Below, one piece after another: positions 30,764-58,790 of a stretch of DNA of 64,000 nt. Position 1 is the first letter of the stretch, and every line of letters starts with the position of its first letter. Below the pieces are notes generated by a model. The model made no database searches and was not told the DNA's origin. It saw only the letters and a list, made by a program, of their open reading frames with translations. The stretch lies in NCBI GenBank assembly GCA_944390965.1, contig CALXRW010000005.1, forward strand, positions 16 to 64,015, given 5' to 3'. The stretch is from an uncultured Clostridia bacterium (lineage in GTDB: Bacteria; Bacillota; Clostridia; TANB77; CAG-508). Position numbers and translations under genes: made by a program.

Positions 30764-31189
30764 TTATTCATCATCAATAGGTATATATTTCTTTTCTGGC
30801 AATTTTTTGGTTTCTTCCTTTTTTGGTATTTCTATTTTTAAAATTCCATTTTTGAAAGATGCCTTGATATCTTCGCTTTCAATATCTTCTCCTACATAAA
30901 AGCTTCTTGAACATGAACCCATGTATCTTTCTTTTCTTACATATTTGCCTTCTTCTTTTTCTTCTTTGTCATTATCAATAGTAGCATGTACTGTTAAATA
31001 TCCATCTTCTACTTCAAGTTTAATATTTTCTTTTTCATATCCTGGTAAATCTATGTCAATAATATATTTGTCTTTCTTTTCCTTAATGTCTGTTTTCATG
31101 ACTTTGCTTTCACCTTCTGTAAAAAATGGATCTCTAAACATTTCTCCTAATAAATCAAATTCATGATTTCTTCTTGGTATCATCATCAT
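30764..31189 (-). CDS. Hsp20/alpha-crystallin small heat-shock protein
   Basis: Alpha-crystallin domain (DIKEKKDKYIIDIDLPGYEKENIKLEVEDGYLTV ... FKNGILKIEIPK). Confidence 0.93.
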   Translation of the reverse strand: MMMIPRRNHEFDLLGEMFRDPFFTEGESKVMKTDIKEKKDKYIIDIDLPGYEKENIKLEVEDGYLTVHATIDNDKEEKEEGKYVRKERYMGSCSRSFYVGEDIESEDIKASFKNGILKIEIPKKEETKKLPEKKYIPIDDE

Positions 31190-31281: not shown

Positions 31282-31323
31282 ATTATAGCACTAATTTTAG
31301 CAGTGTCAAGTGGAGACTGCTAA
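31282..31323 (-). promoter_or_regulatory. hsp20 sigma-A promoter overlapped by a CIRCE-like inverted repeat
   Basis: Minus strand reads TTAGCAGTC-N9-CACTGCTAA (31297-31323). The -35 TTGACA (31304-31309) lies inside the spacer, 16 nt from the -10 TATAAT (31282-31287). Confidence 0.6.
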
Positions 31324-31583
31324 TTTTCACAAAAGTTTCACATTTTTTAATTCTATCCATTTCCAATTTTATCAATCTATCTTGTTTTTATATTAAGTTC
31401 AGTATGTTCTGTGAATATATGGCATTTTTTCTGTATTGATTTTGAATAAACTTATTGGTACCTATTGCCATTAGCAGCTTTATGTATTGGCCTAACTTCA
31501 AAAGCTTTTACTCGTCTTTTATCATAGCTTGAAAAAATATCGTATGTTTATTTAACATTCAAATTTTTTAATTTTCACATGCA

Positions 31584-31635
31584 TTGCAAAACATTTGCAA
31601 AATTATTTGACAAATTTGTTTAAACTGTGTATAAT
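31584..31635 (+). promoter_or_regulatory. Consensus sigma-A promoter with an upstream 7-3-7 palindrome
   Basis: TTGCAAA-ACA-TTTGCAA (31584-31600), then TTGACA (31607-31612), 17 nt, TATAAT (31630-31635). Confidence 0.6.
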
Positions 31636-31641
31636 AATTAT

Positions 31642-31732
31642 AGGAAATGGAGAAACCACAAACGTGGTCAACCTCGGAATAATGTTTTAGACACATCAAA
31701 CTTTGGCGAGTTTACAGATGTGTCTGTTTTTT
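31642..31732 (+). ncRNA. Candidate about 90-nt small RNA (possible type I antitoxin)
   Basis: Starts just downstream of a consensus promoter. Ends in the strong hairpin AGACACATC(AAACT..AGTTT)GATGTGTCT + GTTTTTT (31689-31732). Convergent with the hydrophobic peptide gene, whose stop is at 31736. Confidence 0.45.
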
Positions 31733-31735
31733 GGT

Positions 31736-31858
31736 TTATTTGCTCTTACGAAGTAGTATTACAAGTGCTATTATCGAAGTAAGAGCTATGATAGTTACTC
31801 CTATTAATGAATAATATAATATGTATATTGTTGCAATTAATGTTTGTATTTCTACCAT
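31736..31858 (-). CDS. 40-aa hydrophobic peptide with a basic C-terminus (candidate type I toxin)
   Basis: GGAGGTGA 6 nt upstream of ATG 31858. Translates to MVEIQTLIATIYILYYSLIGVTIIALTSIIALVILLRKSK. The SD can pair with the upstream CCTCC. Confidence 0.5.
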   Translation of the reverse strand: MVEIQTLIATIYILYYSLIGVTIIALTSIIALVILLRKSK

Positions 31859-31969
31859 AAGCCTCACCTCCTTGTTGGAGGCAAACCACATCTGCTTGTT
31901 CTCATTTCCTATGTTTAATACTATATAACATTTGTTCGCAAAAATCAAGTGAACATAACTTTTTTGTGC

Positions 31970-32027
31970 AAAAAATCCAAGATTTATTGATTCTATAAAA
32001 AAATATAATCAGTAAATCTTGGATTTT
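31970..32027 (-). terminator. spo0A terminator
   Basis: 15-bp stem AAAATCCAAGATTTA / TAAATCTTGGATTTT, followed by a T-run in minus sense. Confidence 0.7.
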
Positions 32028-32087
32028 ATTTTTTAAAACTATTATTTAAATTTTATGTATTTTTACTATTGTAATATTTTTCATAAT

Positions 32088-32906
32088 CTATGCTGATTTT
32101 AATTCAAGACGTAATTTGTCAGCTATCATTGCTATAAATTCTGAATTTGTAGGTTTCCCTTTGCTTGCTGATACTGTATAACCAAAAATGCCATCTACAG
32201 CATCTAATTGCCCCCTTGACCAAGCTACTTCAATTGCATGGCGAATTGCTCTTTCTACTCTACTTGGTGTTGTTCCAAATGTTTTTGCAATGTCTGGATA
32301 TAATTGTTTTGTAATCTGATTGATAATTTCAATATCATTTACCACCATCATAATCGCTTCTCTTAAATATTGATATCCCTTAATATGAGCTGGCACTCCC
32401 ACTTCATGTATCACGTTTGTTACTAGGGCTTCTAAATTTTTCTCATCTTTTTGCTTTTCTGGAGATAATTCTATGTATTGTGCTTTTATTTCCTTTCCTA
32501 TAAAATTATTTTTGACAGGAGTTGATTGGTAATTCTTCAATTCTTTGATTCTTTTTATTAATAATTCAATATCGAATGGTTTTACAACATAATATTCTGC
32601 TCCTAGGTTAATAGCTCTCTGGGTAATTTTATCTTGCCCCACGGCAGATAGCATAATACATAATGGGTGTTTCTGTAGATTAACAGAATTTAATTTCTCT
32701 AATACTCCTATTCCATCTAAATGTGGCATAATCACGTCTAGTAAGATAATATCTGGCTGTGCATTTGTGATCATTTCGAAAGCTTCATTGCCATCCTTTG
32801 CCACTCCAATTACTTCCATATCATCTTGTTTTTCTAAATATCCGGTCAATGTTTTTGCAAATTCTGTGTTGTCATCTGCGATTAAAACTGTGATTTTCTC
32901 TTTCAA
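32088..32906 (-). CDS. spo0A: Sporulation master regulator Spo0A
   Basis: Receiver domain ([18 protein letters not shown]) plus the Spo0A-specific C-terminal domain ([36 protein letters not shown]). Confidence 0.96.
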
Positions 32907-58394: not shown

Positions 58395-58583
58395 TTTTTT
58401 GTTTCACCTCCACACATTTTATTTAAAGAATAAATCTAATTTCTCTAAACCTTTTTAATATTTACTATATTAAATTAAGGTCTAGCAAAAAGCATATGAG
58501 ATTTGTTGACGCAAAAAATTGTGAAACAATTTTTCTATGCATCTATTTTTCAAATTACATGAAATGCAGTTTTCTATAACTTG

Positions 58584-58692
58584 AAAAACTCTGTACATAC
58601 CACCAAGGCATATACAGAGTTTGCATTTACTCTTTCTTAACACCTCGGTAGGACTTACTTAAATATTTGCCTACTGTCTTTGGCTATTTAGT
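58584..58692 (-). promoter_or_regulatory. Probable L10 (rplJL) leader with attenuator
   Basis: Minus strand has AAGACAGTAGG...CCTACCGAGGTG, then the hairpin AAACTCTGTATAT/ATGTACAGAGTTT + TTTTT. This resembles Firmicute L10 leaders that act by attenuation. Confidence 0.45.
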
Positions 58693-58695
58693 TTT

Positions 58696-58790
58696 TTATT
58701 GTATAGGAAATTTCCAGAACAATAAGATTAAGTTACCTATGTTTTCACTCGATTGTGTTGCAATCTGTACATGCGATGAAGTCACTTTTT
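58696..58790 (+). repeat. Family-2 intergenic repeat, copy C2 (diverged)
   Basis: TTATTGTATAGGAAATTTCC...GATTAAGTTACCTATGTTTTCACTCGATTGTGTTGCAATCTGTACATGCGATGAAGTCACTTTTT aligns with C1 at about 80% identity. Confidence 0.7.

What the first reader, a model, noticed from the sequence alone, without database searches (positions are those of the whole stretch)
31584..31882. Candidate type I toxin-antitoxin-like locus: 40-aa hydrophobic peptide convergent with a promoter-to-terminator small RNA unit
On the minus strand a 40-aa ORF (31736-31858) has a strong SD (GGAGGTGA). It encodes MVEIQTLIATIYILYYSLIGVTIIALTSIIALVILLRKSK, which is one TM helix plus a basic tail, the usual look of type I toxins. 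Its leader (31859-31882) can fold in two ways: CCTCC-AACAA-GGAGG, which sequesters the SD, or GCCTC...GAGGC, which exposes it.

On the plus strand there is a consensus promoter, TTGACA-17-TATAAT (31607-31635), preceded by the 7-3-7 palindrome TTGCAAA-ACA-TTTGCAA. It drives a transcript of about 90 nt that ends in a strong hairpin plus a U-run (31689-31732), four bases from the peptide stop codon. In minus-strand sense that hairpin lacks a U-tract, so the peptide mRNA probably reads through and becomes complementary to the small RNA. This is the 3'-overlap geometry seen in txpA/RatA-type systems.
Basis: inference. Interest (0 to 1): 0.65.

Follow-up and report, generated by a model that had tools for sequence, protein, structure and literature searches.

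The report
Toxin-like membrane peptide with antisense RNA
A conserved 40-residue membrane-peptide gene with a masked ribosome site faces a small antisense RNA gene; this looks like a previously undescribed family of type I toxin-antitoxin-like modules in uncultured gut Clostridia, often next to spo0A.

Summary
The 40-aa ORF, its GGAGGTGA ribosome site, the consensus + strand promoter and the hairpin plus U-run are all at the stated coordinates.

The unit is far from chance. I recovered 72 distinct copies from gut Clostridia MAGs. The whole ~340-nt block is conserved while its flanks are not.
- The peptide is under purifying selection (dN/dS 0.29).
- The ribosome site is buried in a hairpin in 41 of 42 distinct leaders.
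- The small-RNA promoter matches consensus at 11-12 of 12 positions in 69 of 72 copies. The peptide promoter is always weaker.
- Copies occur several per genome and in tandem arrays of two or three.

Four chicken-gut metatranscriptomes hold exact contigs confined to 31599-31932, but they carry no strand information.

The peptide matches no Pfam or NCBIfam family and no paper. The best reading is a new family of type I toxin-antitoxin-like modules.

Its geometry is closer to par (Fst/RNA II) and SprA1/SprA1AS than to txpA/RatA, because the small RNA stops 3 nt short of the ORF.

An unexpected feature is that the first ~37 nt of the small RNA are a same-sense copy of the mRNA leader, including its anti-ribosome-site arm.

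Toxicity, antitoxin action and transcript strands remain untested.

The parts
31920..31948 (-). Promoter of the peptide mRNA: TTGATT-17-TATAGT, 9 of 12 matches. The predicted start is about 31913/31912.
   Evidence: scan. Across the family the peptide promoter scores only 7-11 of 12 (TAGACA, TTGATT or TTGTTT with TATAGT, TATACT or TAAAAT).
31859..31913 (-). 5' leader of the peptide mRNA, about 54 nt. It holds the 5' motif AUAGGAAAUGAGAA (31912-31899), CAGAUGUG (31894-31887), the anti-SD arm UUUGCCUCC (31885-31877), the loop AACAA (31876-31872) and the SD arm GGAGGUGAG (31871-31863).
   Evidence: The 9-bp SD-sequestering hairpin is the MFE fold. GGAGG is fully paired in 41 of 42 distinct family leaders, while the loops vary in sequence and length (4-9 nt). 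The leader is almost invariant in 72 modules.
31736..31858 (-). 40-codon ORF plus stop: MVEIQTLIATIYILYYSLIGVTIIALTSIIALVILLRKSK. It has an acidic N-terminus, a ~30-residue hydrophobic helix and a basic C-terminus.
   Evidence: dN/dS is 0.29 over 53 distinct 40-codon ORFs. 62 of 72 modules have exactly 40 codons, 9 length variants remain open ORFs of 38-46 codons, and one copy is broken. 73 clusters at 50% identity were found among 1.84 billion proteins. No Pfam or NCBIfam family matches.
31689..31725 (.). Hairpin shared by both transcripts: outer stem AGACACATC/GATGTGTCT, inner stem AAACT/AGTTT, loop TTGGCG. On the + strand it is followed by T6 (31727-31732). On the - strand of this copy no U-run follows.
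   Evidence: Covariation in the outer stem: A-U in 28 sequences versus G-C in 14 at one pair, and 2 double changes at another. The peptide-strand T-run is 4 or more in 27 of 61 family members and 2 or fewer in 34 of 61, including the window.
31607..31635 (+). Promoter of the small RNA: TTGACA-17-TATAAT, 12 of 12 matches.
   Evidence: 69 of 72 modules score at least 11 of 12 against TTGACA-N16-18-TATAAT at the same position.
31642..31733 (+). Predicted small RNA of about 90 nt. Its parts are the 5' AUAGGAAAUGGAG tail, a 5' hairpin ACCAC-AAAC-GUGGU (31655-31668), a variable linker (31669-31688), and the terminator hairpin with U-run.
   Evidence: Fold. 62 distinct family versions share this layout. 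No Rfam family matches. Exact RNA contigs begin at 31640 (X4) and 31652 (X5).
31640..31677 (+). Leader-like 5' part of the small RNA: a same-sense copy of the first ~37 nt of the peptide mRNA (31912-31876 on the - strand). It includes a copy of the anti-SD arm (GUGGU..ACCUC here; GUGGUUUGCC(UC) in most copies).
   Evidence: Inverted repeat I1. Median 28 of 37 identical positions across 62 modules, above every shuffle. The two 5' ends change together in 2-3 lineages.
31649..31660 (+). GGAGAAACCACA, complementary to the leader's UGUGGUUUGCCUCC (31890-31877, - strand). That gives 12 bp with a 2-nt bulge and is a candidate second contact site.
   Evidence: It is the best duplex site in most modules. 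Support is weak for a single sequence: 18 of 1000 shuffles (22-nt test) and 180 of 1000 (46-nt test) do as well. Forming it also requires opening two hairpins.
31584..31600 (.). 7-3-7 palindrome TTGCAAA-ACA-TTTGCAA just upstream of the -35 box. It is specific to this copy and is not part of the conserved module.
   Evidence: Sequence. The flank beyond the -35 box is not conserved.

Best explanation
This is a type I toxin-antitoxin-like module from a previously undescribed family.

**The peptide mRNA.** A weak promoter drives an mRNA of about 225 nt or more for a 40-residue single-helix membrane peptide. The primary transcript is translationally silent, because a 9-bp leader hairpin (UUUGCCUCC/GGAGGUGAG) buries the ribosome-binding site.

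**The small RNA.** A convergent consensus promoter makes an RNA of about 90 nt, presumably in excess. It ends at a hairpin placed 3 nt after the peptide stop codon.

**How they meet.** Both RNAs contain that hairpin, so their 3' ends are perfectly complementary. I infer that pairing starts there and does two things: it exposes the mRNA to double-strand-specific cleavage, and it tethers the small RNA to the mRNA.

**The second contact.** The 5' third of the small RNA is a copy of the mRNA's own inhibitory leader. Once tethered, it can hold the ribosome site closed through its anti-SD copy, or exchange partners with the leader hairpin.

**Shown versus inferred.** Shown: the ORF, the promoters, the hairpins, the complementarity, their conservation, purifying selection, copy number, and RNA confined to the module. 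Inferred: transcript strands and ends, peptide toxicity, antitoxin action, and the order of pairing steps.
For: - Conserved block: the ~340-nt conserved block ends at the two promoters and the flanks diverge.
- Coding: dN/dS is 0.29; 71 of 72 modules keep an open ORF of 38-46 codons (62 of exactly 40); one pseudogene.
- Masked ribosome site: the SD is paired in 41 of 42 distinct leaders although the loops vary.
- Promoter asymmetry: the small-RNA promoter scores at least 11 of 12 in 69 of 72 modules, against 7-11 of 12 for the peptide promoter.
- Shared hairpin: it shows compensatory changes and has U-runs on both strands in 27 of 61 copies.
- Copy number: several copies per genome, and tandem arrays of 2-3 in L004, L005, L007, L011 and L023.
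- Expression: exact-match contigs in four chicken-gut RNA runs cover only 31599-31932, with zero depth on both flanks.
- Leader copy: the small-RNA 5' end and the mRNA 5' end align same-sense, median 28 of 37 identical.
- Pairing with the ribosome site: the part of the small RNA after its 5' hairpin loop pairs with the SD-to-start region better than its own shuffles. The mean is -11.5 versus -8.6 kcal/mol over 55 modules.
- Fit to a known system: the architecture matches the par features listed in PMC7472228.
Against: - There are no strand-resolved reads. The RNA evidence is unstranded contigs, and in run X1 the flanks are covered too.
- No toxicity or neutralisation data exist, and the peptide resembles no known toxin.
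- One copy sits just downstream of spo0A in about 28 of the 84 loci fetched by then, drawn from different species. That could mean a housekeeping role rather than an addiction module.
- The module was not found on phages or plasmids, where many type I systems live.
- The 5' complementarity is weak by shuffle test for a single sequence, and forming it means opening two hairpins.
- The leader and the small-RNA 5' end are nearly invariant, so covariation cannot test the proposed intermolecular pairs.
- The window copy lacks a U-tract for the mRNA, so its 3' end is unknown.
Confidence: 0.65

Rival explanations
1. A non-toxic small membrane protein with an ordinary cellular role, perhaps tied to spo0A or sporulation, whose level is tuned by an antisense RNA. 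The regulation would be the same, but the peptide would be neither a toxin nor part of an addiction module.
For: A full-length spo0A lies directly upstream on the same strand in about 28 of the 84 loci fetched by then. Their Spo0A proteins are only 67-77% identical to the window's, which indicates long vertical retention at one site. Selection is purifying. No phage or plasmid carries the module. There is no similarity to any known toxin.
Against: More than half of the loci are elsewhere in the genome. Several genomes carry 2-3 dispersed copies plus tandem arrays. There is a pseudogene (L009) and a copy without the small-RNA gene (L087). The combination of a masked SD, a weak promoter and a consensus antisense promoter is the usual signature of a product that must be kept off.
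Confidence: 0.22
2. A selfish repeat (MITE-like element) bounded by the 14-18-nt inverted repeat ATAGGAAATG(G)AGAA. On this reading the ORF and 'promoters' are incidental.
For: An inverted repeat brackets the unit (I1). The unit is multi-copy and tandem. The two repeat arms change together in 2-3 lineages.
Against: Conservation extends outside the repeat into both promoters. The ORF shows clear coding constraint, and 71 of 72 modules keep an open ORF of 38-46 codons. Some dispersed copies carry a fragment of the spo0A 3' end, which points to segmental duplication rather than transposition.
Confidence: 0.05
3. The + strand unit is not a functional RNA. The hairpin would be only a terminator for neighbouring genes, and the promoter match would be fortuitous in AT-rich DNA.
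For: AT-rich DNA gives many promoter-like hits: 21 found against 16 expected. The RNA contigs are unstranded.
Against: The match is 12 of 12 here and at least 11 of 12 at the same offset in 69 of 72 modules, whatever the genomic context. The RNA body between promoter and hairpin is more conserved than the ORF's 3' half. There is no + strand gene downstream.
Confidence: 0.05

Closest known systems
par of pAD1 and its relatives (Fst toxin mRNA RNA I / antitoxin RNA II; Enterococcus faecalis)
   Same: Both have convergent promoters and a small RNA 3' of the toxin ORF that does not overlap it. Both share a terminator hairpin that makes the 3' ends complementary, and the hairpin is bidirectional with U-runs on both sides in 27 of 61 family members. 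Both have a 5' stem-loop that sequesters the SD, a possible helix involving the extreme 5' end, and extra complementarity outside the overlap (features from PMC7472228).
   Different: The peptide has no PXXXG motif and no conserved Trp, and it does not match the Fst Pfam model. In place of two DNA direct repeats that make the RNA 5' ends complementary, the ends here are an inverted repeat, so the two RNAs share the same 5' sequence. The only direct-repeat-type complementarity targets the anti-SD arm, not the start codon. The window copy has no U-tract on the peptide strand.
SprA1/SprA1AS (PepA1) of Staphylococcus aureus
   Same: In both, the antisense RNA is encoded at the 3' end, the overlap lies outside the ORF, and the functional contact is proposed to be made in trans by the non-overlapping 5' domain at the ribosome-binding region (classification in PMC8594479).
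   Different: There is no sequence relationship in the peptide or the RNA. The 5' contact here is only predicted and is weak for single sequences.
txpA/RatA and bsrG/SR4 of Bacillus subtilis
   Same: Both are convergent 3'-overlapping toxin mRNA and antisense RNA pairs in a Firmicute. The expected outcome is cleavage and decay of the toxin mRNA after duplex formation (established knowledge of these systems; PMC6563280).
   Different: In those families the antisense RNA overlaps the 3' part of the ORF (PMC8594479). Here it stops 3 nt short of the stop codon. The peptide is not a Hol_Tox/TxpA-type sequence.
Clostridioides difficile type I systems (CD0956.2/RCd10 and others)
   Same: These are also small hydrophobic toxins of 34-59 aa with a charged C-terminus and antisense RNA antitoxins, found in a member of the Clostridia (PMC6563280).
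   Different: No sequence similarity was detected. The C. difficile systems lie in prophages or next to CRISPR arrays, whereas this family was not found in phage collections and often sits beside spo0A.

Membership tests
Type I toxin-antitoxin system (generic) | Small (under 60 aa) hydrophobic, membrane-spanning peptide ORF | tested here: met
   The 40-aa ORF has a ~30-residue hydrophobic core with acidic N and basic C ends. It is conserved and under purifying selection.
Type I toxin-antitoxin system (generic) | A separately transcribed antisense RNA complementary to the toxin mRNA | tested here: inconclusive
   A consensus promoter, an intrinsic terminator and a shared hairpin are conserved in 69-72 modules. 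RNA contigs are confined to the module. No strand-specific reads were available.
Type I toxin-antitoxin system (generic) | The peptide is toxic when over-produced, and the RNA neutralises it | not testable with these tools
   This needs expression experiments.
par / Fst-RNA II family | Convergent promoters with a shared bidirectional intrinsic terminator | tested here: inconclusive
   Convergent promoters: yes. U-runs on both sides of the hairpin occur in 27 of 61 family members. The window copy has a U-run on the small-RNA side only.
par / Fst-RNA II family | Two DNA direct repeats (DRa, DRb) that make the RNA 5' regions complementary over the SD and start codon | tested here: not met
   The 5' ends form an inverted repeat, so the RNAs have the same sense. 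A single gapped 12-nt direct repeat pairs the small RNA with the anti-SD arm. Pairing with the SD-to-start region is imperfect.
par / Fst-RNA II family | Intramolecular 5' stem-loop that sequesters the SD | tested here: met
   A 9-bp hairpin is predicted here, and GGAGG is paired in 41 of 42 distinct leaders.
par / Fst-RNA II family | Fst-type peptide (PXXXG motif, conserved Trp; Pfam Fst_toxin) | tested here: not met
   The peptide has no proline and no Trp, and no Pfam hit even at E up to 10. Motif definition taken from PMC7472228.
TxpA/RatA (and BsrG/SR4, SprG/SprF) families | The antisense RNA overlaps the 3' part of the toxin ORF | tested here: not met
   The small-RNA U-run ends at 31732 and the stop codon lies at 31736-31738. 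Class definition taken from PMC8594479.
TxpA/RatA (and BsrG/SR4, SprG/SprF) families | Hol_Tox/TxpA-type peptide | tested here: not met
   Pfam Hol_Tox does not match the 40-aa peptide. In the same call it does match the 29-aa peptide of L085.
Known RNA families (Rfam 15) | A match to a curated covariance model | tested here: not met
   Nothing reaches the gathering threshold. Only chance-level hits to the spo0A terminator appear at E up to 10.

The most novel reading that the evidence does not exclude
The antitoxin RNA is a trans-acting copy of the toxin mRNA's own cis-inhibitory leader. It has the same 5' end and the same anti-SD arm at the same spacing. The middle segment is replaced so that the anti-SD copy is masked in a look-alike hairpin.

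Once tethered through the shared terminator, the two look-alike hairpins would swap partners. The small RNA's pseudo-SD arm would pair with the mRNA's anti-SD, and the small RNA's anti-SD would pair with the mRNA's SD. Alternatively, the small RNA would recapture mRNAs that have lost their leader by processing.

One copy of this family would be stably retained beside spo0A across many genera, linking the module to the sporulation master-regulator locus.
Probability: 0.2. Interest if true: 0.65.

Novelty: new member of a known kind. Interest (0 to 1): 0.5.

Why it matters
Type I toxin-antitoxin systems are hard to find because the peptides are tiny and the RNAs are not annotated. Known Gram-positive families come from a handful of cultured species.

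This family is widespread in uncultured, low-G+C gut Clostridia from chicken, human, mouse and rabbit. Its peptide is at most labelled 'hypothetical protein' in the databases, its antisense RNA gene is not in Rfam, and it is absent from the searched literature.

It offers a compact ~340-nt module for testing how a masked ribosome site and an antisense RNA cooperate. It has one unusual feature: the small RNA carries a copy of the mRNA's inhibitory leader.

If the peptide is toxic, the module could also serve as a counter-selection marker for genetically intractable gut Clostridia. The repeated position next to spo0A raises a testable question: does it stabilise or modulate that locus?

Tried and rejected
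- **Known RNA families.** Rfam at gathering and permissive thresholds gave nothing for the module.
- **Known protein families.** Pfam and NCBIfam gave no family for the peptide.
- **Literature.** A search for the peptide and leader strings gave no paper.
- **Mobile elements.** Phage and plasmid collections gave no match. IMG/VR holds one contig with the leader 17-mer, and it belongs to a different peptide.
- **Upstream in-frame start.** Gene callers use MWFASNKEVRL- to make a 51-aa product. I rejected this because homologues shift frame upstream of the SD (MRI.RCGLPPTKEEVRR versus MWFASNKEVRL) and the SD sits inside that stretch.
- **Leader mini-ORF.** AUG at +8 gives MRTSRCGLPPTRR*, ending in the SD. 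I rejected it as a conserved feature: loop indels change its frame and stop, and the AUG is lost in some copies.
- **Riboswitch or attenuator.** The + strand unit cannot be one for a downstream gene, because there is no + strand gene there.
- **MITE.** Rejected because of the coding constraint and because the conserved promoters lie outside the repeat.
- **Long-range 5'-3' closure of a read-through mRNA** (leader AUAGGAAAUGAGAA with the complement of the small-RNA 5' end). It is attractive because the two ends co-vary. It is unlikely as a family mechanism, because many members have a good terminator in between. I left it unexplained.
- **Leader CAGAUGUG against the terminator's CACAUCUG**. Both are invariant, so this cannot be tested by covariation.
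- **The 12-bp small-RNA/anti-SD duplex as the main contact.** The shuffle test is weak and the energetics are unfavourable.
- **Strand assignment.** This was not possible, because all runs that hold the locus are kept as unstranded contigs.

Full report
**1. What is in the window**

The DNA is low in G+C and clostridial. spo0A lies at 32088-32906 on the minus strand (Response_reg and Spo0A_C domains in the syntenic loci). It ends in a long AT-rich hairpin at about 31974-32025.

Downstream on the same strand come, in order:
- a promoter-like site, TTGATT-17-TATAGT, at 31948-31920;
- a 54-nt leader;
- the 40-codon ORF at 31858-31736, with GGAGGTGA at 31871-31864.

On the plus strand, a perfect TTGACA-17-TATAAT at 31607-31635 points at the ORF. 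It is followed about 50 nt later by a two-tier hairpin (31689-31725) and T6 (31727-31732), 3 nt before the stop codon.

The 7-3-7 palindrome at 31584-31600 is real. It is not conserved in relatives, so I do not count it as part of the unit.

**2. Is it more than chance?**

Yes. The peptide has 64 relatives in the 5.8-billion-protein collection, mostly unnamed (two carry a source's 'hypothetical protein' label). It also has 73 clusters at 50% identity among 1.84 billion representatives. These share a 37-46-residue core, M[IV]E..L..IIY[IL]LF..L.G.TI.A.AL.IAL..ILSK.

A scan of one genome per species gave 130 matches. I fetched 80 loci, all gut Clostridia MAGs such as Clostridium sp. CAG:567 and CAG:575, from human, chicken, mouse and rabbit samples.

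From these and four metagenome loci I extracted 72 distinct modules. The conserved DNA block starts at the peptide promoter and ends at the small-RNA promoter, and the flanks are unrelated.

**3. The ORF is a real gene**
- 62 of 72 modules have exactly 40 codons. Nine others keep an open ORF of 38-46 codons. One copy (L009) has a premature stop.
- Over 53 distinct 40-codon ORFs, dN/dS is 0.29.
- Synonymous divergence is about three times lower in codons 1-24 than in codons 25-40. That suggests an added RNA-level constraint on the 5' half.
- The 51-aa form picked by gene callers is an artefact. Upstream of the SD the homologues change frame.

**4. The leader keeps translation off**

The minimum-energy fold pairs UUUGCCUCC with GGAGGUGAG. 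In 41 of 42 distinct family leaders GGAGG is fully paired, while the loop varies in sequence and length from 4 to 9 nt. The few arm changes are mostly wobble-compatible.

**5. The small RNA gene is part of the module**

Its promoter matches the consensus at 11-12 of 12 positions in 69 of 72 modules. The peptide promoter reaches only 7-11 of 12. This asymmetry is what type I systems need.

The RNA has four parts: a conserved 5' tail, a hairpin AAACCAC-NNNN-GUGGUUU, a variable linker, and the terminator. The terminator's outer stem shows compensatory A-U to G-C changes. No Rfam model matches. There is no plus-strand gene downstream for it to regulate in cis.

**6. Expression**

Four chicken-gut RNA runs hold contigs identical to the window that lie only within 31599-31932:
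- X2: 31599-31885
- X3: 31672-31932
- X4: 31640-31890
- X5: 31652-31891

Depth is zero at 31540-31598 and at 31940-31990. This fits transcription of the module at a higher level than its neighbours. The left ends near 31640-31652 fit the predicted small-RNA start. The X2 contig that reaches 31599 fits some read-through of the peptide mRNA.

These are unstranded assembler contigs. In run X1 the flanks are covered as well. The evidence is therefore supportive but not decisive.

**7. Overlap geometry**

The small RNA does not enter the ORF. In 27 of 61 distinct modules, however, there is a T4-T8 run, so the hairpin is a bidirectional terminator.

By the T1TAdb classes (PMC8594479) this places the family with Fst/RNA II and SprA1/SprA1AS: a 3' overlap outside the ORF, with the regulatory contact elsewhere. 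It does not belong with TxpA/RatA.

**8. A second contact, and an unexpected feature**

The first ~37 nt of the small RNA and of the mRNA are the same sequence in the same sense. The median is 28 of 37 identical positions, above every shuffle. The shared stretch runs AUAGGAAAUG(G)AGAA ... GUGGUUUGCC(UC). The two ends change together in two or three lineages.

So the small RNA carries a copy of the mRNA's anti-SD arm at the same distance from the 5' end. In the small RNA, that copy is paired with GGAGAAACCAC. Two trans contacts follow from this:
- The small RNA's GGAGAAACCACA can pair with the mRNA's UGUGGUUUGCCUCC. This is the best duplex in most modules. It is weak by shuffle test and energetically costly.
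- The small RNA's anti-SD copy plus linker can pair with the SD-to-start region. This is better than shuffles over 55 modules, at -11.5 versus -8.6 kcal/mol, and clear in only 16 of them.

I treat the partner-swap model as a hypothesis. Both elements are almost invariant, so covariation cannot test it.

**9. Genomic behaviour**

A full-length spo0A lies just upstream in about 28 of the 84 loci fetched by then, and those Spo0A proteins are only 67-77% identical to the window's. The other loci are elsewhere, and some carry a fragment of the spo0A 3' end.

Six of the sampled assemblies contributed two or three separate loci. Arrays of two or three modules at about 530-560-nt spacing occur in L005, L007, L011 and L023, and a closer pair about 290 nt apart in L004. 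The window itself has one copy.

The module is absent from the phage and plasmid collections.

**10. Comparison and verdict**

The architecture works like par/Fst as summarised in PMC7472228. It has convergent promoters, a shared terminator, an SD-sequestering 5' stem-loop and extra 5' complementarity.

It is not a member of that family. The peptide lacks the PXXXG and Trp hallmarks and matches no Pfam model. The 5' ends also form an inverted repeat rather than direct repeats.

It is not TxpA/RatA-like in overlap or in peptide. No similarity to the C. difficile toxins or to any named family was found.

I therefore file it as a new family of a known kind, type I toxin-antitoxin-like modules. 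My confidence that the peptide is a toxin held in check by the small RNA is about 0.65. The main rival, at about 0.2, is a non-toxic membrane peptide under antisense control.

Noticed in passing
window 31282-31322 (- strand), upstream of hsp20 (30764-31189): The hsp20 promoter is a 12 of 12 TTGACA-16-TATAAT with an upstream TG. It is overlapped by a CIRCE-like inverted repeat, TTAGCAGTC-N9-CACTGCTAA, which suggests HrcA-type heat-shock control.
   Followed up: partly
window 31970-32035: spo0A ends in a very long AT-rich hairpin (about 23 bp per arm) with A/T runs on both sides. It gave only chance-level miRNA-like hits in Rfam.
   Followed up: no
L085 12,600-13,010 (the same 32,274-nt contig as L091): A 29-aa Pfam Hol_Tox peptide (MNDMYKLLTLLLAFGTFIIVLLTFIFKFS) sits behind the same 21-nt leader, AAGCAGATGTGGTTTGCCTCC. 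It has its own convergent TTGACA-17-TATAAT small RNA and a shared terminator, and that small RNA's first ~30 nt again resemble the mRNA 5' end. Only this one contig was found, so a recombinant or convergent origin cannot be told apart.
   Followed up: partly
window 31706-31711 versus L001/L059-type copies: The apical loop of the shared hairpin is TTGGCG in window-type copies and its exact reverse complement, CGCCAA, in other copies, while the stems are kept. This looks like a loop inversion. It moves a YUNR-like UUGG from one transcript to the other.
   Followed up: no
L009, L020, L052, L069 (leader region): A structured insertion of about 60 nt lies in the leader between AUAGGAAAUGAGAAU and AAGCAGAUGUGG. 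In L009 the ORF also has a premature stop after four codons.
   Followed up: no
L087 (metagenome contig): This is a module with an intact leader and a 40-aa ORF but no small-RNA gene downstream, that is, an apparent orphan peptide gene.
   Followed up: no
window 31887-31894 and 31715-31722: The leader's CAGAUGUG is an exact complement of the 5' arm of the mRNA's own terminator (CACAUCUG). It is also identical to the 3' arm of the small RNA's terminator. Both are invariant across the family, more than a terminator alone would require. This is unexplained.
   Followed up: partly
L002, L015, L043, L056, L062: Short Spo0A C-terminal fragments (52-64 aa, 75-88% identical) accompany dispersed module copies. 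This suggests the module spreads by segmental duplication of the spo0A 3' end together with the module.
   Followed up: partly
window 58573-58701 (- strand): The ribosomal protein L10 leader (Rfam RF00557, 51 bits) is the only Rfam family above threshold in the window.
   Followed up: no
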